In this document: piece by piece, positions 17,707 through 25,078 of the stretch
How positions within the stretch are numbered: the first letter of the stretch is position 1
Layout: every line of letters begins with the position of its first letter
Source of the DNA: Methanopyrus kandleri AV19
GTDB taxonomy: Archaea > JAADCQ01 > Methanopyri > Methanopyrales > Methanopyraceae
DNA: 32,000 nt
Reading direction: 5' to 3'
Assembly (NCBI RefSeq): GCF_000007185.1
Contig: NC_003551.1
Location: 360,001-392,000, forward strand
The notes under the pieces: model-generated
What the model was told of the DNA's origin: nothing
What the model saw: the letters and a program-made list of their open reading frames with translations, nothing else
Databases searched by the model: none
Translations under genes and position numbers: made by a program

Positions 17707-18210
17707 TTGAACGTCGATGACGCCATCGTCGAGGCGCTAGAGGAGGCTGGAATCACCTTCGCCTGCTGGCTACCCTGTTCCCTCTTGGACGGGATCATCA
17801 GGCGATTGGAAGAACACCCAGAGATCCGAACGGTCAGGGTGTCCAGGGAGGAAGAAGGCGTAGGGATCTGCGCGGGAGCTGCCCTCGCGGGCGAGAAACC
17901 CGCACTGATAATGCAGAACTCGGGTCTCGGTAACTCCGTCAACGCTCTCTGCTCACTCACCTTAACCTACCGACTCCCACTGCTGATGTTGATGAGTCAC
18001 CGTGGCTACCTGTTCGAAGACATCCCGGCACAGGTGGGGATGGGGAAAGCGGCGCCTAAGATCTTGGAAAACCTCAATCTACACGCGTTCACGATCGAGC
18101 GGCCGGAAGAGCTGGACGTGATACCGGGTGCCTGGAAGCTCGCCGAGACTGCGGGCGAACCCGTCGGTGTATTCTTAAGTCCGAGACTGTGGCGTCAGAC
18201 GGGCCGATAG
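17707..18210 (+). CDS. comD: sulfopyruvate decarboxylase subunit alpha (TPP pyrimidine-binding half)
   Basis: 167 aa. VSREEEGVGICAGAALAGEKPALIMQNSGLGNSVNAL (catalytic Glu region of the TPP_enzyme_N domain). TTG start 3 nt after the comA stop. Confidence 0.85.
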   Translation: MNVDDAIVEALEEAGITFACWLPCSLLDGIIRRLEEHPEIRTVRVSREEEGVGICAGAALAGEKPALIMQNSGLGNSVNALCSLTLTYRLPLLMLMSHRGYLFEDIPAQVGMGKAAPKILENLNLHAFTIERPEELDVIPGAWKLAETAGEPVGVFLSPRLWRQTGR

Positions 18211-19169
18211 AAGACGTGGAAGCAGTCCCAACTCTTCTCTACGATCACGTCATGCAGCTCTTCGAACGACGGCTCGTACAGTTCCACATCGAGTCCGCGC
18301 CACCGGACCACTTCGCCGACGAGCGGCCGGTACCCTCCCTCTCGGTCGTGGAGCGATGCATGTGGATATCCGAAAGCTGCGGCGATCTCGAGACCGTAGT
18401 CCAGAAGCGTTTCAATGAGGTCGAGAGTAGCATCGAGCCCCAGCAGATGTATGTGATGTTCGATGAACAACTTCGGTGGATCATCCGATTCCAGTAGCTC
18501 AACCATACCCCGAATTACCTCCAACTCAGCTCCTTCAACATCCATTCGTACATAAGTGGGCCTCTCGCCGAGTTTTTCAGACAACTCGTCGAGTGTTATC
18601 GACTCAACCTCTATGTAATCACCATCCTCGGCGTTAACGATACGATGCCAATTAGATCTATTTTCCAGAATCATGCGAATCCTACCACACTTATCAGATA
18701 CTGCATACTCGAAAGCTTTAACCCTATCTTCCAAATTATTAAGAGCTATATTCTCCCTAAGTAATTCCAAGTTTTCCCTCACGGGTTCGATAGCATACAC
18801 TCGAGATCGCTCAGAAGCTAACGCTGTAAGAATAGCGTAATAGCCAATATTTGCTCCAACATCAAAAGCTATTTCTTCATCATTAAGAAATTTACCAACA
18901 AGATATTTGGACGCTTTCGGTTCACGAATATTGCGAAGCCGAAGTTCTCGTGATACACCAGCATCATTTGTATGAACACGAAGATGAAAAGAAACATCTT
19001 CTACCTGTACGCGCACGATGTCACAATTAGATTTCAATTTGTCCATTATAGCGTCCACTGTTTCAGTGAGTAGCACACATCCCGCGTACAATAGTCTAGA
19101 CCCAAGTCGACGCGGTCGATCCCCCATTCCAGGATAGAGACCGAGAGCAGTCTGGAAACGCTTTCGCAA
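18195..19169 (-). CDS. FkbM-family SAM-dependent methyltransferase
   Basis: SAM motif I AFDVGANIGYYAI, then VYAIEP, and a late MDVEGAELEV motif typical of FkbM enzymes. Alternative start at ATG 19046 (MDKLKSN...), where the AT-rich codon usage begins. Confidence 0.75.
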   Translation of the reverse strand: MRKRFQTALGLYPGMGDRPRRLGSRLLYAGCVLLTETVDAIMDKLKSNCDIVRVQVEDVSFHLRVHTNDAGVSRELRLRNIREPKASKYLVGKFLNDEEIAFDVGANIGYYAILTALASERSRVYAIEPVRENLELLRENIALNNLEDRVKAFEYAVSDKCGRIRMILENRSNWHRIVNAEDGDYIEVESITLDELSEKLGERPTYVRMDVEGAELEVIRGMVELLESDDPPKLFIEHHIHLLGLDATLDLIETLLDYGLEIAAAFGYPHASLHDREGGYRPLVGEVVRWRGLDVELYEPSFEELHDVIVEKSWDCFHVFYRPV

Positions 19170-19181
19170 GTGAAAGTTCCC

Positions 19182-19682
19182 CTAGAGAACTAGTTCTGAA
19201 AACACATAGTAATTCAAGTCATAGTCGTTATCTACTATAGCTACTACCAGTTCGAACTCCGTACCTTCAACTAGTTTTAACCATTCCAAAATATCCTGAG
19301 CCGTAAATTCATCCAATTCCTCCTGCAGTACTTTGACGGCTATCCTTTCGTCTTCACCGCGGAACGCCCGAAATTCAGTCCCGAATTTGCGGCCTGGTTT
19401 GGGCTTCCATCCACGTCGTCTGAGATCAGCGTATACTGCGTAGCGCACGGGGAATCTCGGATCCTCCTCCACGAACCTATCCATCAGCTCCTCCGGACTA
19501 ATCCGTACGTTTCCACTACGGACTTCAAGCCTACCGATCTCACATAAGAATAGCGCTTCTTCAGGCCACAATTGCAGACCGCGACGTGACGGTTTCCCGT
19601 ACATGGAGGAGTACAGTCTGTTCGCATCTCGGTCATTCCGAACGAGCACCTTCGATCCGACTAACTCGCCTTTCGCCGCCAT
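19182..19682 (-). CDS. endA: tRNA-splicing endonuclease family protein, probably a non-catalytic (structural, beta-like) subunit
   Basis: 166 aa from ATG 19682 (GGGTGGA RBS 5 nt upstream). Collinear with M. jannaschii EndA (VYADLRRRGW...GRKFGTEFR..., AIVDNDYDLNYY), but the catalytic Tyr, His and Lys positions read F107, D/E/R111-113 and F143. Confidence 0.8.
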   Translation of the reverse strand: MAAKGELVGSKVLVRNDRDANRLYSSMYGKPSRRGLQLWPEEALFLCEIGRLEVRSGNVRISPEELMDRFVEEDPRFPVRYAVYADLRRRGWKPKPGRKFGTEFRAFRGEDERIAVKVLQEELDEFTAQDILEWLKLVEGTEFELVVAIVDNDYDLNYYVFSELVL

Positions 19683-19872
19683 TGTCTTCCACCCGCACGG
19701 TAACACCGTCAACTTCGATTTCGTCTCCAGGGGACACCAGCCACCAAGGCTTCCTGACGAGCTTACCGTTCACACGCACACGTCCCGACTCCACCAGCCG
19801 TTTGGCCTCACGCCGGCTTTCGGCGAGACCGACGTCCCTAAGGAACGCGTCCAACCTGCGTCCTACCGTCAC
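19633..19872 (-). CDS. small S4-domain RNA-binding protein
   Basis: 79 aa. RLDAFLRDVGLAESRREAKRLVESGRVRVNGKLVRKPWWLVSPGDEIEV is a complete S4 alpha-L motif. GTGA overlap with the upstream stop. The 3' 50 nt overlap the endA-like start in another frame. Confidence 0.65.
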   Translation of the reverse strand: MTVGRRLDAFLRDVGLAESRREAKRLVESGRVRVNGKLVRKPWWLVSPGDEIEVDGVTVRVEDNGGERRVSRIEGARSE

Positions 19873-20348
19873 TCGAGCTCTTCCTCCCGTAACCTCGGCT
19901 TCTTCACCTCGTAAATCGGCTTCCCGTCGATCGTCTCGGGTGCCAGCCAGTCGATCACCTTCTCGACGTCCTCGGGTCGCTCGGGGAAAACTTCCACCAC
20001 TATGGGGCCCAGCGGGGATTCTCCTCCTTCGGCGAAGCTCACGCTCCCAGCGAACGCCGCCTGCTTGTTCAGGTGGAACAGGATCGATCCTTCAGCGGTG
20101 ACTCCTTCCCGCAGTACCCTCCGGGCCGCGTCTAGAATCTCTTGCTCCCTGAGCAGCTCGTAGATGCGACCCAGACTCAGGCGTGCCTGCGGACCTTCAC
20201 ACACGAACTCCAGTCTCCTCAAGTCACCCATTTCCTCCTCGCGTTCCTCGAACATCTCCAGATCGAACAGATTCCCTACGGCTTTTCGGACTTTCTCCTC
20301 GTCTTCAGTCGGGTACACGTAGGTGGTCAAAACCACCCGGGAGATCAT
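19869..20348 (-). CDS. UPF0201/DUF54-type predicted RNA-binding protein
   Basis: Start at ATG 20348 (GGGGTGAT RBS 4 nt upstream). N-terminal VVLTTYVYPTEDEEKVRKAVGNLF signature, the same TEDE.KV motif as the 11817-12278 protein. Confidence 0.6.
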   Translation of the reverse strand: MISRVVLTTYVYPTEDEEKVRKAVGNLFDLEMFEEREEEMGDLRRLEFVCEGPQARLSLGRIYELLREQEILDAARRVLREGVTAEGSILFHLNKQAAFAGSVSFAEGGESPLGPIVVEVFPERPEDVEKVIDWLAPETIDGKPIYEVKKPRLREEELE

Positions 20349-20895
20349 CCGGATCACCCCTCAGGATTGCCCTTATTACCATTCGGCACTTCTCCCGGAA
20401 CTCCGGCAGACTAACGCGCTCGTTCACGATCATCACGTCGGCTCGGGAAATCACATCACCGATCCCGAACCCCAACTCTCGTTCGTCCCGCTCTTCGAAC
20501 TCCCGCTTGGTGTCCGGATCGTCCTCACGACCCCTTATCCGTAGCCTCTCGAACCTAGTCTGAGGGGACGCATGGATAGCCACGACTATTACCGACCGCT
20601 CGCCGAACCTATCCCGGAAGTACTCGAGTTCCTCCGGGTTCCTGATCCCGTCGATTACCACCACTCCCGCCCGTCTCAGTTCGCGTTCGACGTCTTCCTC
20701 TACTAACCGAGCCACCGCGTCCATTCCTCGCTCCTCACGGAGTCGCTTCGCCATCTCTCCTACGTCCATCCCCCGACGCTCGGCTTCGCGACGGACCGCG
20801 TCACCCATCACCACGACGGGAATACCCTCCTCGCGGGCGACCTTGACGAACTCACCTTTACCAGCCCCCGGCATTCCGACCACGCAGATGAGCAT
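20305..20895 (-). CDS. UPF0200-type P-loop nucleotide/nucleoside kinase-like protein
   Basis: 196 aa. Walker A VVGMPGAGKGEF. DGIRNPEELEYFR and FERLRIRGREDDP segments resemble archaeal UPF0200/adenylate-kinase-like proteins. GGGGGTGA RBS 7 nt upstream of the ATG. Confidence 0.7.
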   Translation of the reverse strand: MLICVVGMPGAGKGEFVKVAREEGIPVVVMGDAVRREAERRGMDVGEMAKRLREERGMDAVARLVEEDVERELRRAGVVVIDGIRNPEELEYFRDRFGERSVIVVAIHASPQTRFERLRIRGREDDPDTKREFEERDERELGFGIGDVISRADVMIVNERVSLPEFREKCRMVIRAILRGDPDDLPGGFDHLRVPD

Positions 20896-22052: not shown

Positions 22053-22165
22053 TGGTGCCGGGGCCGGGATTTGAACCCGGGACCTCGGGGTATCCCAGGC
22101 CGGTCACCCCTCGGGGTCATCGGGCCCTATGAGCCCCGCGCTCTACCAGGCTAAGCTGCCCCGGC
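22053..22165 (-). tRNA. tRNA-Met (anticodon CAT), elongator type, with a 36-nt intron, encoded CCA and C at position 8
   Basis: Hand-folded cloverleaf: GCCGGGG-CA-GCTT-AGCCTGGTA-GAGC-G-CGGGG-CTCATA[intron]A-CCCCG-AGGTC-CCGGG-TTCAAAT-CCCGG-CCCCGGC-A-CCA. The GCCGGGG acceptor and G1:C72 argue against an initiator. Confidence 0.9.
22092..22127 (-). other. tRNA intron at canonical position 37/38 with a bulge-helix-bulge motif
   Basis: Intron is GGGCCCGATGACCCCGAGGGGTGACCGGCCTGGGAT. The central 4-bp helix pairs CTCA (nt 32-35) with TGGG (intron nt 31-34). It is flanked by 3-nt bulges TA|G and AT|A that carry both splice sites. The outer helix is GGCC/GGCC. Confidence 0.8.
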
Positions 22166-22192
22166 TACGCCCGCGGGGAACTCCCCTCTCGA

Positions 22193-22202
22193 ATTAAAAA
22201 AG
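22193..22202. promoter_or_regulatory. AT-rich box (ATTAAAAAAG), candidate shared TATA element for the divergent tRNA-Met and THUMP-SPOUT genes
   Basis: Only AT-rich stretch in the 56-bp divergent spacer. Its centre is about 32 nt from the mature tRNA 5' end (22165) and about 25 nt from ATG 22222. No RBS precedes that ATG, which suggests a leaderless mRNA. Confidence 0.35.
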
Positions 22203-22221: not shown

Positions 22222-23223
22222 ATGGAGCTGCTCCTAACGCTCGCCCCGGACGTTCGACCGGAGGAGACCGAGAGAATGGCGCGGAAGATACAGGACAAGC
22301 TCAAACTACCCGCGGAGCCCGATCCCCTGAAACCGGTTCGCAGGCTTAGGATCGAGGGTGTAGAAGACCCCGACGGAATCGTCAGTAAGCTGAGAGAAGA
22401 GTTCCCGGAGGTCTCTCGAGTCGTGATCGTGAAGCGCCGAGGTCGGTCTCACGATCTCGATAGGATCGCCGCGCAGGCTGCCAAGCTCGCGAGAGGTGAG
22501 ATACTGCCGCACCATACCTTCGCCGTCGACGCCCGGAGGCTCGACAAGGATCTTCCCTACACGTCCCGCGATCTGGCCATCAAGGTCGGCGAAGCGGTGC
22601 GACGGGTTACGGGTGCGTCCGTAGACCTCGACAGTCCGGACCGGTACGTGGACGTCCACGTGTCTCGACACGGGCACCTAATCGGGATCACCCCAGCAAC
22701 ACTGAGGGAGCCACACCGGAGTTGGCTTCCATCCGGCGCCTTTAAGCACGTTCACGTATGCTGTGAGCGACCGGAGACGGAGTACGAGATCGCCGACTTA
22801 ATCCGGATAACCGCGGCACTGGGACTGGGAAGCCTGATACTGGTAGAACCGAACCGGGACGCCGTTCGAGGGGCCGAGGAAAAGGTGGGGGCTTCTTCGC
22901 TTATCGACCTTCGAATCGAAGAGGATCTGAAAGAAGCCTTAGCAGAGTTCGACGTCGTAGTCGGCTTACATCCGACAGCGCCGAACGCTGAGAGTGAACT
23001 CCTACGAGCGGTGGAAGGAGCGAACCAGATCTGCCTCCTAACGGGATCGGAAACTAAGGGACTCAGTCGAGAGGCGAAGGAGCTCGCGGACGTGCTCGTA
23101 CACCTCGGACCGACGACGGCCGAGCCTATGCGGACCGCCAACGCGGTAGCGTACGCTGTAGGTGTGCTGGCCGCCAGGACGGTTAGCCTAGGGTCAGCCA
23201 CCGCTCCCACTCTTCATCGGTGA
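22222..23223 (+). CDS. THUMP-domain / SPOUT (SpoU-TrmH type) methyltransferase fusion protein; predicted tRNA methyltransferase
   Basis: The first ~170 aa show a ferredoxin-like plus THUMP pattern (HHTFAVDARRLDKDLPYTSRDLAIKVGEAVRRVTGASVDLDSPDRYVDVHVSRHGHLIGI). The last ~150 aa carry three SpoU motifs (EIADLIRITAALGLGSLILV; ICLLTGSETKGLS; VLVHLGPTTAEPMRTANAVAYAVGVLA). Confidence 0.7.
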   Translation: MELLLTLAPDVRPEETERMARKIQDKLKLPAEPDPLKPVRRLRIEGVEDPDGIVSKLREEFPEVSRVVIVKRRGRSHDLDRIAAQAAKLARGEILPHHTFAVDARRLDKDLPYTSRDLAIKVGEAVRRVTGASVDLDSPDRYVDVHVSRHGHLIGITPATLREPHRSWLPSGAFKHVHVCCERPETEYEIADLIRITAALGLGSLILVEPNRDAVRGAEEKVGASSLIDLRIEEDLKEALAEFDVVVGLHPTAPNAESELLRAVEGANQICLLTGSETKGLSREAKELADVLVHLGPTTAEPMRTANAVAYAVGVLAARTVSLGSATAPTLHR

Positions 23224-23260: not shown

Positions 23261-24133
23261 ATGGGAAAAGTCGCTTTACGGACCACCGAGTCGCCAGTCC
23301 AGGGAGTGTCCGGTTTGGTCCTAGAAAGGATCTTCGAGGAAGCTGAAGGCGAAGGACGTGGTGCGTTGATCGGGTACTTGACCTGTGGACACCCAGGACT
23401 CGAAGAGACCGTCTCACTGGCTCGGGCGCTTCGTGATGGAGGTGTGGATATCCTGGAACTCGGGGTTCCGTTCTCCGAGCCCATCGCCGACGGTCCGACG
23501 ATACAGAAGGCGGTAGACGAGGCGTTACGAGCGGGCACTACACCGTGGGACTGCTTAGAGGTCGCAGAGGAGGTGTCCGAGTTCGTCCCCGTCGTGCTCC
23601 TATGTTACTACAATACGCTCCACGCCAACGGATTTGAGCGATATCTCTCGGCGGCGGCGGAGGCCGGTGTCTCCGGAATCATAGTGGCGGACATGCCGGT
23701 CGAGGAATCCGACGAGGTCCACTCCGTCGCTCGAGATCTCGAGATCGACGTGATCTACCTGGTAGCCCCTTCCACGACCGATGAGCGGCTGAAGAAGATA
23801 GGGGAAAGAGCCTCAGGGTTCGTGTACGTGATCTCCAGGTACGGCGTCACCGGAGCCCGACGGGATCTTTCCGAAGATACCCTGGAGCTCGTTCGTTGGG
23901 TGCGTGACCACGTCGACGTACCGGTAGCCGTGGGGTTCGGGATCTCGGAACGTTGGCACGTGGAGGAGGTAATAGCCGCGGGCGCTGACGGGGCGATCGT
24001 TGGATCGGCGTTCATCAAGGAGATACACCGGTCCGAGGACATAGCGGAAGCGGAAGAGCGGGTTAGAGAGCTCGCGAAGGAGTTGGTGGAGGGTGCCCGG
24101 GACGGGTACCGTCGAAGATCATCCTCTGAGTGA
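23261..24133 (+). CDS. trpA: tryptophan synthase alpha chain
   Basis: GALIGYLTCGHPGLEET...DILELGVPFSEPIADGPTIQKA (catalytic Glu and Asp present), ...GFVYVISRYGVTG...VAVGFGIS. The start could be ATG 23261, GTG 23306 or TTG 23315. Confidence 0.9.
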   Translation: MGKVALRTTESPVQGVSGLVLERIFEEAEGEGRGALIGYLTCGHPGLEETVSLARALRDGGVDILELGVPFSEPIADGPTIQKAVDEALRAGTTPWDCLEVAEEVSEFVPVVLLCYYNTLHANGFERYLSAAAEAGVSGIIVADMPVEESDEVHSVARDLEIDVIYLVAPSTTDERLKKIGERASGFVYVISRYGVTGARRDLSEDTLELVRWVRDHVDVPVAVGFGISERWHVEEVIAAGADGAIVGSAFIKEIHRSEDIAEAEERVRELAKELVEGARDGYRRRSSSE

Positions 24134-24499
24134 CTTACCGGCGGCTTCTTTGAGCTTCGCAGCCAGCCGTTTAGCCGCCCGGCTCAGTGCTCTCTCTGCC
24201 TCCTCCTCGAGTACTTCATCCGCGATCTCCAAGGCTCGCTCGATAACCTTCTGTGCCTCCTCCGGATCCGACAATTCGGGCTTTCTGCGTCTCAGCTCGT
24301 CCTGCAACATCCGCTCTAGATGCACATAAGCGCGGTCGGATAGCGAAGGGACGAACCGTTCGTAGAACTCCGAACTTAGGGATTCTTTCACCGAGCTTCG
24401 ATCGACCTCGAGCCTCTCCGCGAGGTATACCTCCTGCCAGAGCCTGAGGATTCTCTCGCGCGCCTTCTCCGAGGCGATGACGCGACGGGTCACGCTCAC
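24119..24499 (-). CDS. hypothetical all-alpha protein (126 aa)
   Basis: GTG start in a GTGA overlap with the upstream ORF stop. Charged helical composition. No family recognised. Confidence 0.5.
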   Translation of the reverse strand: MSVTRRVIASEKARERILRLWQEVYLAERLEVDRSSVKESLSSEFYERFVPSLSDRAYVHLERMLQDELRRRKPELSDPEEAQKVIERALEIADEVLEEEAERALSRAAKRLAAKLKEAAGKSLRG

Positions 24500-24816
24500 T
24501 CCTCCCCTAACTTGAGGTGCTTCTCGAGCTCCTCCAGAACTTTGCGAACGCCGCGTTCGGCTACGTACCCTAACCTCCAGTCGACGTCCTCTAGCGCCCG
24601 CTCCACAGTCTTACACACCGCCTCTACGACCCAGCGGTACTCGTCGACGTCGATCCCGGCGTCACGTAATCTCCTGTAGTACCGGCTGCGGAAGTTGACG
24701 GCGAAACGCTCCAGCTCCCTCTTCACCTCGTTGGAAAGTTCGACGGGGTCCAGTTCTTCCCTCACGCGATTCGAGAGGTCCGAAATTACCTCCTCAGTAG
24801 TGTGTTCAGCCGTCAA
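24496..24816 (-). CDS. hypothetical all-alpha protein (106 aa)
   Basis: TTG start with a GGGGGTTGA RBS-like element upstream. Translationally coupled to the 24119-24499 ORF. No family recognised. Confidence 0.5.
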   Translation of the reverse strand: MTAEHTTEEVISDLSNRVREELDPVELSNEVKRELERFAVNFRSRYYRRLRDAGIDVDEYRWVVEAVCKTVERALEDVDWRLGYVAERGVRKVLEELEKHLKLGEE

Positions 24817-24998: not shown

Positions 24999-25073
24999 GG
25001 GCCCGCAGCTCAGTCCGGTTAGAGCGCGGGGCTCATAACCCCGTGGTCCCGGGTTCAAATCCCGGCGGGCCCA
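24999..25073 (+). tRNA. tRNA with anticodon CAT, intron-less, C at position 8; acceptor stem is tRNA-Ile-like, so possibly tRNA-Ile2(CAU) rather than Met
   Basis: Hand-folded: GGGCCCG-CA-GCTC-AGTCCGGTTA-GAGC-G-CGGGG-CTCATAA-CCCCG-TGGTC-CCGGG-TTCAAAT-CCCGG-CGGGCCC-A. Followed by CCC, so CCA is not fully encoded. Confidence 0.9.
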
Positions 25074-25078
25074 CCCTG

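What the first reader, a model, noticed from the sequence alone, without database searches (positions are those of the whole stretch)
22222..23223. THUMP-SPOUT fusion: a predicted tRNA methyltransferase architecture with no characterised member that I know of
Seen: the N-terminal ~170 aa follow the ferredoxin-like plus THUMP pattern shared by ThiI, Trm11, Tan1, Trm14 and CDAT8 (TFAV..RR....PYTSRDL..KVG..V......VDLDSPD..V.VHV......IGI). The C-terminal ~150 aa carry the three SpoU/TrmH knot motifs (IRITAALGLGSLILV; LLTGSETKGLS; HLGP...PMRTANAVAYAVGVLA). Established: THUMP docks on the tRNA 3'-CCA/acceptor end and positions a fused catalytic module on nucleotides 6-12. The known partners are Rossmann-fold methyltransferases, PP-loop ATPases, a cytidine deaminase and a pseudouridine synthase. 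Inference: a SPOUT module on this THUMP ruler predicts a new 2'-O- or base-methylation in the acceptor/D-arm region. The gene is divergently paired, across a 56-bp spacer, with a tRNA gene whose position 8 needs another THUMP enzyme (CDAT8). I cannot check whether databases already list this architecture.
Basis: partly seen in the sequence, partly recalled or inferred. Interest (0 to 1): 0.72.

Follow-up and report, generated by a model that had tools for sequence, protein, structure and literature searches.

The report
Second THUMP–SPOUT methyltransferase of Methanopyrus
The gene really does encode a THUMP RNA-docking module fused to a knotted SpoU-type methyltransferase, but this architecture already has a characterised member (TrmTS, 2025), and this protein is an uncharacterised second family that sits in the same genome as a true TrmTS.

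Summary
The ORF at 22222..23223 (+) encodes 333 aa with a THUMP domain (Pfam E=4.5e-13) and a SpoU_methylase domain (E=2.3e-10). The AlphaFold2 model is confident (pLDDT 94). Its N-half matches Trm14, ThiI and CDAT8; its C-half matches TrmJ, TrmL and RlmB. The divergent tRNA(CAU) with C8, 56 bp upstream, is real.

The claim of "no characterised member" is wrong for the architecture. TrmTS (TK1257, NAR 2025) has the same ferredoxin-like–THUMP–linker–SPOUT layout and makes Cm6/Am6/Um6. Pfam PF14419 has long described a "SPOUT fused to THUMP".

This protein (M. kandleri AV19, UniProt Q8TYA3) is not TrmTS:
- Its SPOUT domain is PF00588-type, not PF14419.
- The two SPOUT profiles do not cross-hit.
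- The same genome also encodes an intact TrmTS orthologue (Q8TVD0) that keeps all the reported essential residues.

Q8TYA3 belongs to a small, unnamed family of about 30 clusters at 50% identity. Members occur in Methanopyri, Vulcanisaeta, Ignisphaera and other Thermoproteota MAGs.

The most likely function is a dimeric, SAM-dependent 2'-O-methyltransferase that docks on the tRNA CCA end. Its target would lie in the acceptor-stem to position-10 region and differ from that of TrmTS. The site is unknown.

Verdict: a new variant of a known kind, of moderate interest.

The parts
22222..23223 (+). Complete ORF, 333 aa plus stop codon. It is M. kandleri AV19 AAM01617.1 / WP_011018772.1 / UniProt Q8TYA3, annotated 'THUMP domain-containing protein'.
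   Evidence: ORF listing; exact-sequence look-up.
22222..22446 (+). N-terminal ferredoxin-like domain (NFLD), about residues 1-75. Secondary structure: beta 2-7, alpha 13-27, beta 31-33, beta 41-45, alpha 50-60, beta 64-74.
   Evidence: AF2 model with pLDDT 95-98 in this region. The N-half matches PH1313, Trm14, TrmN, ThiI, Trm11 and CDAT8 in Foldseek.
22447..22695 (+). THUMP domain, about residues 76-158.
   Evidence: Pfam PF02926 at residues 77-154, E=4.5e-13. hhalign of the N-half against the TrmTS N-half: probability 99.3%, E=2.7e-20, 35% identity.
22696..22749 (+). Linker, residues 159-176 (ATLREPHRSWLPSGAFKH). It has a conserved basic residue and a Pro (family consensus K.R...P). Its length is comparable to the TrmTS linker.
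   Evidence: Alignments A1 and A2. Secondary structure of the two models gives 18 aa here against 21 aa in M. kandleri TrmTS. hhalign places it opposite the TrmTS linker.
22750..23187 (+). SpoU/TrmH-type SPOUT catalytic domain, residues 177-322. Residues 323-333 (23188-23220) form a disordered tail.
   Evidence: Pfam PF00588 at residues 177-295, E=2.3e-10. Foldseek: S. acidocaldarius TrmJ TM 0.78-0.79 at rmsd 2.1-2.9 A, plus TrmL, AviRb, RlmB and RlmR. NCBIfam TrmJ/TrmH hits fall below their cutoffs.
22786..22824 (+). SPOUT motif 1 (E189-G201, EIADLIRITAALG). R195 corresponds to the catalytic Arg41 of TrmH. E189 occupies the TrmH Asn35 position. E189 and D192 are invariant in the family.
   Evidence: phmmer alignment to E. 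coli TrmH 7edc_A; column table.
23035..23067 (+). SPOUT motif 2 (L272-S282, LLTGSETKGLS). G275 and E277 are invariant.
23101..23169 (+). SPOUT motif 3, the knot loop and C-terminal helix (H294-L316, HLGPTTAEPMRTANAVAYAVGVL). R304 and Y311 are invariant. T305 and N307 correspond to Ser150 and Asn152 of TrmH.
   Evidence: The correspondence to the TrmH/TrmL motif is my own reading, because the Pfam match ends at residue 295.
22192..22202 (.). A/T-only box AATTAAAAAAG in the 56-bp spacer. Its centre lies about 25 nt upstream of the ATG and about 32 nt from the tRNA 5' end. It is a candidate archaeal TATA element, which would imply a leaderless mRNA.
   Evidence: Sequence. The block TAAAAAAG(G)TTACGTGGGGT is conserved at the same distance from the start codon in Methanopyri loci L001-L003. 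Promoter function is inferred, not shown.
22056..22165 (-). Neighbouring, divergently oriented tRNA(CAU) gene with an intron of about 36 nt at position 37/38. It has C at position 8 and G at position 6. It is listed as context only; no functional link to the enzyme was shown.
   Evidence: Rfam RF00005, 52.2 bits. The adjacency is conserved in Methanopyri loci L001-L004 but not in Thermoproteota loci.

Best explanation
Q8TYA3 is a SAM-dependent RNA 2'-O-methyltransferase, most probably acting on tRNA. It is built like TrmTS but carries a different catalytic module.

Proposed mechanism:
- An 18-residue conserved linker fixes the distance to a compact SpoU/TrmJ/TrmL-type SPOUT domain.
- That domain dimerises and binds SAM in its trefoil knot.
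- It uses the motif-1 arginine (R195) together with motif 2 (G275, E277) and motif 3 (R304, T305, N307) to methylate the ribose 2'-OH of a nucleotide a fixed distance from the CCA end. The target would lie in the acceptor stem up to about position 10.

The same genome has an intact TrmTS, which makes Nm6 on C/A/U. The window protein should therefore serve a different site or a different base or tRNA subset. Examples are G6, which TrmTS rejects, a neighbouring acceptor-stem position, or position 8-10.

Shown here: domain identity, fold, conserved residues, paralogy with TrmTS and family distribution.
Inferred: CCA docking, dimerisation, ribose rather than base chemistry, and the target region.
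Unknown: the exact site.
For: - THUMP and SpoU_methylase both score above the Pfam gathering cutoffs.
- The AF2 model has pLDDT 94.1 and pTM 0.78.
- In Foldseek the N-half matches Trm14, TrmN, ThiI, Trm11 and CDAT8. The C-half matches the 2'-O-methyltransferases TrmJ (TM 0.78-0.79), TrmL, RlmB, AviRb and RlmR.
- R195 aligns with the catalytic Arg of TrmH. Across 28 family members every sequence has Arg at position 195 or else, three residues on, Arg (His in two members) at position 198. E189, D192, E257, G275, E277, R304 and Y311 are invariant.
- Tkaczuk et al. [quoted passage not shown] R195 and T305 meet it.
- TrmTS has the same NFLD-THUMP-linker-SPOUT layout. It was shown to need the CCA end and to make Nm6.
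- The N-halves of the two families align at hhalign probability 99.3%, E=2.7e-20. The linkers are of similar length.
- The same 1,694,969-bp genome encodes TrmTS orthologue Q8TVD0. It retains K155, K160, R193, S229, D270, T322, T325 and E326.
Against: - There is no experimental datum for any member of this family.
- Positions of M. kandleri tRNA modifications are essentially unmapped, so no orphan modification can be assigned to it.
- T305 is Ser or Thr in only 19 of 28 members, and N307 is not conserved outside Methanopyri.
- THUMP is not exclusive to tRNA enzymes. Known counter-examples, from general knowledge, are RlmKL on 23S rRNA and THUMPD2 on U6 snRNA.
- Gene context gives no functional hint outside Methanopyri.
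- I had no access to model coordinates. The knot and the distance from the CCA pocket to the SAM site were therefore not measured.
Confidence: 0.62

Rival explanations
1. It is a position-6 enzyme like TrmTS but with complementary specificity. It would make Gm6, or Nm6 on a tRNA subset that TrmTS does not serve. The two paralogues would then share one site.
For: The architecture is the same and the linker length is similar. TrmTS rejects G6. The adjacent tRNA(CAU) has G6, and the other tRNA in the window has C6.
Against: The catalytic domains are of different SPOUT families. The geometry of the active site relative to THUMP therefore need not be the same. G6 in hyperthermophile tRNAs is usually the m2G/m22G site of Trm14. 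There are no data on Gm6 in Methanopyrus.
Confidence: 0.2
2. It methylates a non-tRNA RNA, such as rRNA or another structured RNA with a free single-stranded 3' end. In this view THUMP serves as a general RNA-binding module, as in RlmKL or THUMPD2.
For: Several of the best structural matches of the C-half are rRNA 2'-O-methyltransferases: RlmB, RlmR, AviRb and the thiostrepton/nosiheptide resistance enzymes. The existence of THUMP enzymes acting on rRNA and snRNA is general knowledge; THUMPD2 papers are listed.
Against: The closest SPOUT structures are tRNA enzymes: TrmJ at TM 0.78-0.79, and TrmL. Among the known single-catalytic-domain NFLD-THUMP enzymes I considered (ThiI, Trm11, Trm14/TrmN, CDAT8, TrmTS), all act on tRNA.
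Confidence: 0.08
3. It is a base methyltransferase (for example making m1G, m1A or m3U) or transfers another group, rather than a ribose methyltransferase.
For: Other SPOUT families (TrmD, Trm10, RsmE, Nep1, TrmY, Tsr3) do such chemistry. The family has unusual invariant acidic residues (E189, D192) in motif 1 where TrmH has Asn. The Ser/Thr of motif 3 is not universal.
Against: The sequence and fold place the domain inside the SpoU/TrmH/TrmJ/TrmL cluster. In the Tkaczuk 2007 table the members of that cluster with an assigned specificity (TrmH, RlmB, AviRb, TrmJ, Trm56) are all 2'-O-methyltransferases. The Arg plus Thr signature is present in the window protein.
Confidence: 0.07
4. It is a catalytically inactive or regulatory paralogue, for example a tRNA-binding chaperone or a partner subunit.
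For: No direct evidence of activity exists. The catalytic Arg position alternates between R195 and Q195 across the family.
Against: Where position 195 is Gln, an Arg (His in two members) appears at position 198 on the same helix face. The SAM-knot motifs G275, E277 and R304 are invariant across 19-30% identical sequences. That is the pattern expected of an active enzyme under selection.
Confidence: 0.03

Closest known systems
TrmTS (T. kodakarensis TK1257; Pfam THUMP + PF14419 SPOUT_MTase_2; COG1818 / 'AF2226-like', 'SpoU family 4'), the tRNA Cm6/Am6/Um6 2'-O-methyltransferase (PMC12255305)
   Same: The domain order is the same: NFLD, THUMP, conserved linker, SPOUT. The size is similar (333 against 348-355 aa). 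The N-halves align at hhalign probability 99.3%, E=2.7e-20, 35% identity. The motif-1 Arg (R193 and R195), the G-S-x-E/G motif 2 and the L-x-P knot loop are collinear. Both occur in hyperthermophilic archaea.
   Different: The SPOUT domain belongs to a different family. The window protein hits PF00588 and not PF14419. TrmTS hits PF14419 at about 1e-81 and not PF00588. SPOUT-only hhalign gives only 19.9% probability, and HMMs of the two SPOUT domains do not cross-hit at E<=10. The TrmTS SPOUT domain is about 25 aa longer, with long helices. Its best structural matches are AF_0751 and Trm56 (TM 0.61-0.67), whereas the window protein matches TrmJ at 0.78-0.79. No counterparts of TrmTS residues S229, D270, T322, T325 and E326 could be identified. 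M. kandleri has its own intact TrmTS, Q8TVD0, so the window protein is a paralogue, not the orthologue.
SpoU/TrmH-family 2'-O-methyltransferases (PF00588): TrmJ (Nm32), TrmH (Gm18), TrmL (Nm34), RlmB
   Same: The catalytic domain matches at the sequence and fold level. The motif-1 Arg, the motif-2 G-x-E and the motif-3 (R)-T-x-N are present.
   Different: None of these enzymes has an NFLD-THUMP module. They use N- or C-terminal extensions, or the dimer itself, to recognise the D-arm or the anticodon arm. The window protein scores far below the NCBIfam equivalog cutoffs (26 against 167-350 bits). Motif 1 has invariant Glu and Asp where TrmH has Asn.
Trm14/TrmN (THUMP + Rossmann-fold m2G6/m2G67 methyltransferase) and the other THUMP enzymes (ThiI s4U8, CDAT8 C8-to-U8, Trm11 m2G10)
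   Same: They share the NFLD-THUMP docking module, which gives the best full-length Foldseek matches. The logic of measuring from the CCA end to positions 6-10 is also shared.
   Different: The catalytic domain is a knotted SPOUT fold. It is not a Rossmann fold, a PP-loop or a deaminase.

Membership tests
TrmTS (THUMP + PF14419, tRNA Nm6 methyltransferase) | Domain order NFLD - THUMP - linker - SPOUT in one polypeptide of about 350 aa | tested here: met
   Pfam domains and AF2 secondary structure. The full-length alignment with the TrmTS profile is collinear.
TrmTS (THUMP + PF14419, tRNA Nm6 methyltransferase) | SPOUT domain of the AF2226-like type (PF14419) | tested here: not met
   There is no PF14419 hit at E<=10. 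Only 1 of 28 family members hits it, weakly at E=0.0028. True TrmTS proteins score 1e-62 to 1e-82. SPOUT-only hhalign gives 19.9% probability. HMMs do not cross-hit.
TrmTS (THUMP + PF14419, tRNA Nm6 methyltransferase) | Residues reported as essential (R193, S229, D270, T322, T325, E326) and linker lysines K155 and K160 | tested here: not met
   Only the R193 equivalent (R195) and a basic residue plus Pro in the linker can be matched. The rest have no alignable counterpart. M. kandleri Q8TVD0 keeps all eight.
TrmTS (THUMP + PF14419, tRNA Nm6 methyltransferase) | Being the orthologue, that is the only family copy in the genome | tested here: not met
   M. kandleri AV19 (the same 1,694,969-bp record) and Methanopyrus sp. 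KOL6 each encode a separate PF14419 protein 47-49% identical to Thermococcus TrmTS.
TrmTS (THUMP + PF14419, tRNA Nm6 methyltransferase) | CCA-dependent formation of Cm6/Am6/Um6 | not testable with these tools
   This needs an enzyme assay and LC-MS mapping.
SpoU/TrmH family of SPOUT 2'-O-methyltransferases (PF00588) | Pfam PF00588 match above the gathering score | tested here: met
   41.2 bits against a cutoff of 29.7, E=2.3e-10. 16 of 28 family members also match.
SpoU/TrmH family of SPOUT 2'-O-methyltransferases (PF00588) | Three motifs: motif-1 Arg; motif-2 G-x-E; motif-3 Ser/Thr-x-Asn at the start of the C-terminal helix | tested here: met
   R195 aligns with the TrmH Arg. G275 and E277 are invariant. 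T305-A306-N307 is present in the window protein and in Methanopyri relatives. In the wider family, motif 3 keeps R304 but not always Thr or Asn.
SpoU/TrmH family of SPOUT 2'-O-methyltransferases (PF00588) | Alpha/beta trefoil-knot fold | tested here: inconclusive
   The AF2 model superposes on TrmJ at TM 0.78-0.79 and rmsd 2.1-2.9 A over the whole catalytic domain.
SpoU/TrmH family of SPOUT 2'-O-methyltransferases (PF00588) | Membership of a named equivalog (TrmJ, TrmH, TrmL, RlmB) | tested here: not met
   NCBIfam scores are 15-27 bits against cutoffs of 160-350.
SpoU/TrmH family of SPOUT 2'-O-methyltransferases (PF00588) | Homodimer with the active site at the interface; SAM binding | not testable with these tools
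   Only monomer prediction was available.
THUMP-domain RNA-modification enzymes | THUMP domain preceded by an N-terminal ferredoxin-like domain | tested here: met
   PF02926 E=4.5e-13. Foldseek matches of the N-half to PH1313, Trm14, TrmN, ThiI, Trm11 and CDAT8 at E 1e-13 to 1e-8.
THUMP-domain RNA-modification enzymes | Recognition of the tRNA 3'-CCA end | not testable with these tools
   This needs binding or activity assays with CCA-deleted tRNA.

The most novel reading that the evidence does not exclude
This family would be a second THUMP-guided SPOUT enzyme that installs a ribose methylation not yet assigned to any enzyme. Candidate sites are Gm6, a neighbouring acceptor-stem nucleotide on either strand, or Nm8-10. 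The last of these could be coupled to CDAT8-edited U8 in Methanopyrus. The fusion could have arisen independently of TrmTS or by swapping the catalytic knot domain. My evidence cannot distinguish the two, so convergent evolution of a 'CCA ruler plus knotted methyltransferase' design is not excluded.
Probability: 0.35. Interest if true: 0.6.

Novelty: new variant of a known kind. Interest (0 to 1): 0.45.

Why it matters
Hyperthermophile tRNAs are heavily 2'-O-methylated, and many of the responsible enzymes and sites are unknown. For M. kandleri almost no positions are mapped. TrmTS showed in 2025 that a THUMP ruler can be coupled to a SPOUT domain.

The present protein shows that the same genome carries a second, differently built enzyme of this kind. 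It also defines a small family in Methanopyri and hot-spring Thermoproteota that includes the cultured Vulcanisaeta distributa. That gives a concrete candidate for an unassigned acceptor-stem or D-arm ribose methylation.

Comparing the two paralogues is also a natural experiment. It asks how the same docking module positions two different knotted catalytic domains.

The practical impact is limited. It is one more tRNA modification enzyme, in organisms that are hard to manipulate.

Tried and rejected
1. "It is the M. kandleri orthologue of TrmTS." Rejected. The SPOUT family differs, and a separate intact TrmTS is in the same genome.

2. [quoted passage not shown] Not sustained.
- In the full-profile search, TrmTS proteins were the top out-of-family hits.
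- With an N-half-only profile they score 70-78 bits, the same as other THUMP proteins.
- The origin is left open.

3. Gene context as a functional clue. The divergent tRNA and the flanking small ORFs and DUF763 are conserved only within Methanopyri. Thermoproteota loci have unrelated neighbours. There is no operon signal.

4. The bacterial-type promoter and terminator scan found nothing, as expected for an archaeon.

5. Folding the pre-tRNA alone was uninformative (z=-1.6).

6. Searches that failed:
- The search for related loci with the broad alignment A2 had no usable conserved stretch. A narrower alignment, A3, worked.
- The M. kandleri genome paper is not held.

7. TK1257 itself was not retrieved. 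Its family was recovered by querying with peptide fragments translated from the mutagenesis primers in Supplementary Table 4 of PMC12255305. A 355-aa Thermococcus orthologue, P0176, has identical residue numbering and was used for mapping.
Full report
**The observation**

The ORF at 22222..23223 (+) exists exactly as described: 333 aa with an ATG start. Pfam finds THUMP (PF02926) at residues 77-154, E=4.5e-13. It finds SpoU_methylase (PF00588) at residues 177-295, E=2.3e-10. Both are above their curated cutoffs.

NCBIfam gives only sub-threshold hits. ThiI and Trm14 match the N-half, and TrmJ, TrmH and RlmB match the C-half. Sequence search of the PDB gives weak hits to TrmH, TrmN, TrmJ and PH1313.

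- Rfam finds it at 22056..22165 on the minus strand (52.2 bits). ARAGORN missed it because of an intron of about 36 nt.
- The anticodon is CAU. Position 8 is C and position 6 is G.
- The spacer to the ATG is exactly 56 bp.

The exact protein sequence is M. kandleri AV19 AAM01617.1 / WP_011018772.1 / UniProt Q8TYA3. It is annotated only as "THUMP domain-containing protein".

**Structure**

An AlphaFold2 model built on a 28-sequence family alignment is confident, with mean pLDDT 94.1 and pTM 0.78. It divides as follows:

| Region | Residues |
|---|---|
| Ferredoxin-like domain | ~1-75 |
| THUMP | ~76-158 |
| Linker | 159-176 |
| Alpha/beta SPOUT domain | 177-322 |
| Disordered tail | 323-333 |

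Foldseek against the PDB matches the N-half to PH1313, Trm14, TrmN, ThiI, Trm11 and CDAT8. It matches the C-half to SpoU-type 2'-O-methyltransferases. The best is S. acidocaldarius TrmJ (TM 0.78-0.79, rmsd 2.1-2.9 A). Then come E. coli and P. aeruginosa TrmJ, TrmL, AviRb, RlmB and RlmR. I could not inspect coordinates, so the knot is inferred from the superposition and not traced.

**Is the architecture uncharacterised? No.**

A literature search found Matsuda et al., NAR 2025 (PMC12255305). T. kodakarensis TK1257, named TrmTS, is a 355-aa protein with NFLD, THUMP, linker and SPOUT domains. The paper reports that:
- it makes Cm6, Am6 and Um6 but not Gm6;
- it requires the CCA end;
- it dimerises through its SPOUT domain;
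- it depends on R193, S229, D270, T322, T325 and E326, and on the linker lysines K155 and K160.

Tkaczuk et al. 2007 (PMC1829167) already listed THUMP among the domains fused to SPOUT. They also predicted that COG1818 (the AF2226 family, "SpoU family 4") contains ribose methyltransferases.

I recovered the TrmTS family by querying with peptides translated from the paper's mutagenesis primers. Its Pfam signature is THUMP + PF14419, "AF2226-like SPOUT RNA methylase fused to THUMP".

**Is the window protein a TrmTS? No.**

1. Its SPOUT domain hits PF00588 and not PF14419, even at E<=10. TrmTS proteins hit PF14419 at 1e-62 to 1e-82 and never PF00588.
2. Profile-profile comparison, split by domain, gives two different answers.
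   - The N-halves are clearly homologous: probability 99.3%, E=2.7e-20, 35% identity.
   - The SPOUT halves reach only 19.9% probability, over the knot region alone.
3. HMMs of the two SPOUT domains do not cross-hit at E<=10.
4. A model of the M. kandleri TrmTS orthologue (pLDDT 92.4) has the same beta-alpha order but longer helices. Its SPOUT domain is closest to AF_0751 and aTrm56 (TM 0.61-0.67). The window protein is closest to TrmJ.
5. A profile search with TrmTS sequences returned "SPOUT family RNA methylase [Methanopyrus kandleri]" (P0280 = AAM02675.1 / Q8TVD0).
   - It is 348 aa, has THUMP + PF14419, and lies on the same 1,694,969-bp genome record as the window protein.
   - It keeps all eight functionally tested TrmTS residues.
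   - Methanopyrus sp. KOL6 also has both proteins.

The window protein is therefore a second, paralogous THUMP-SPOUT enzyme.

**The family**

The word-indexed search found only ten close relatives. They are Methanopyrus species at 83-92% identity and unnamed Methanopyri MAG proteins at 54-66%.

The exhaustive profile search of 1.84 billion cluster representatives found 13 hits below 1e-30 and about 30 representatives of 290-354 aa that cover both domains in one stretch. Of 28 sequences scanned, 23 hit THUMP and 16 hit PF00588.

Named members come from these groups:
- Methanopyri
- Vulcanisaeta, including cultured V. distributa strains
- Ignisphaera
- Thermoproteaceae, Thermoprotei and Nitrososphaeria MAGs
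- Methanomethylicota
- one Diapherotrites MAG

Source annotations are "hypothetical", "THUMP domain-containing", or evident THUMP-driven mislabels such as TAN1 and thiamine biosynthesis ATP pyrophosphatase.

Members are 19-31% identical to the window protein outside Methanopyri. Even so, E189, D192, E257, G275, E277, R304 and Y311 are invariant. R195 aligns with the catalytic Arg of TrmH. Two covarying types emerge:
- In one type position 195 is Arg and position 280 is Gly.
- In the other, position 195 is Gln, an Arg (His in two members) appears at position 198 one helical turn on, and position 280 is Asp.

This is the pattern expected of a conserved, active catalytic site.

**Mechanism**

Three things point to a THUMP-docked, dimeric, SAM-dependent ribose 2'-O-methyltransferase:
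- the fold;
- the Arg (N-terminal helix) plus Thr (C-terminal helix) signature that Tkaczuk et al. associate with ribose methylation;
- the TrmTS precedent.

The linker is similar in length to that of TrmTS (18 against 21 residues between the last THUMP strand and the first SPOUT strand). It shares a basic-residue-plus-proline pattern. The target is therefore probably near position 6.

Because TrmTS is present and intact in the same cell, I expect a different site or a different base or tRNA subset. G6, which TrmTS rejects, is one option. Positions of M. kandleri tRNA modifications are essentially unmapped, so no orphan modification can be matched. This step is inference.

**Surroundings**

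- Upstream, the divergent tRNA(CAU) is followed on the minus strand by a DUF763 gene.
- Downstream on the plus strand, trpA starts 17 bp after the stop codon.
- Then come two small minus-strand ORFs and a second tRNA-Met (24999..25075), which also has C8 but has C6.
- The tRNA adjacency, the small ORFs and DUF763 recur in Methanopyri MAG loci. They do not recur in Thermoproteota loci, whose neighbours are unrelated. The pairing reflects lineage synteny and is not evidence of a functional link.
- The spacer contains one A/T-only box (22192..22202) about 25 nt before the ATG. The block TAAAAAAG(G)TTACGTGGGGT is conserved in Methanopyri relatives. It is a plausible TATA element for a leaderless transcript. 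This is inferred.

**Evolution**

TrmTS proteins were the best out-of-family hits of the full-length profile. With an N-half-only profile, however, they score no better than other THUMP proteins. I cannot say whether there was one fusion followed by replacement or divergence of the knot domain, or two independent fusions.

**Verdict**

What remains new is a distinct, uncharacterised THUMP + SpoU-type family that coexists with TrmTS. I rate it a new variant of a known kind, with interest about 0.45.

Noticed in passing
window 22056..22165 (-) and 24999..25075 (+): Both tRNA(CAU) genes in the window have C at position 8, so both would need CDAT8 editing. The first has G6 and an intron of about 36 nt, and ARAGORN missed it. 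The second has C6, which makes it a potential TrmTS substrate.
   Followed up: partly
window 22056..22165 (-); L001 2822..2936, L002 2822..2936, L003 2825..2937, L004 1395..1516: The exons of the intron-containing tRNA(CAU) are identical in the window and in three Methanopyri MAGs. The intron keeps conserved flanks (GGGCCCGAUGACCC ... GGGCCUGGGAUA), while its central hairpin varies in sequence and length. The intron also contains a C-box-like GAUGA.
   Followed up: no
window 18195..19169 (-), 19182..19712 (-), 20305..20895 (-): A cluster of RNA-related genes lies 1.3-4 kb upstream. It comprises a tRNA-splicing endonuclease (EndA; PF01974 + PF02778), an FkbM/Trm5-like methyltransferase, and an adenylate-kinase-like AAA protein. 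They lie near an intron-containing tRNA gene.
   Followed up: no
protein P0066 (358 aa; Pfam): This is another unusual architecture: NFLD-THUMP fused to an FtsJ-like (Rossmann-fold, typically 2'-O) methyltransferase domain. It is not among the THUMP enzyme types listed in the 2023 review.
   Followed up: no
protein P0047 (371 aa, Candidatus Diapherotrites MAG): This DPANN member of the family has the same motif 3 (HLGPNSSQPMRSSQALAYALA). A lysine/asparagine-rich repeat of about 70 aa (KENK...) is inserted between a degenerate N-terminal module and the SPOUT domain. NCBI labels it 'TrmH family RNA methyltransferase'.
   Followed up: no
Supplementary Table 4 of PMC12255305, compared with TrmTS sequences: As printed, the 'D270A/E/N' primers place the mutated triplet one base out of frame at codons 266/267 of ...NKRLLIITDP.... 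They would encode I267P, I267R and wild type respectively, not changes at D270. This may be a table error, but it weakens D270 as a firmly established essential residue.
   Followed up: partly
window 24119..24499 (-) and 24496..24816 (-); L017 5942..6643: Two small adjacent ORFs (126 and 106 aa) with no Pfam match are conserved next to the methyltransferase gene in a Methanopyri MAG (127 and 103 aa). Their function is unknown.
   Followed up: no
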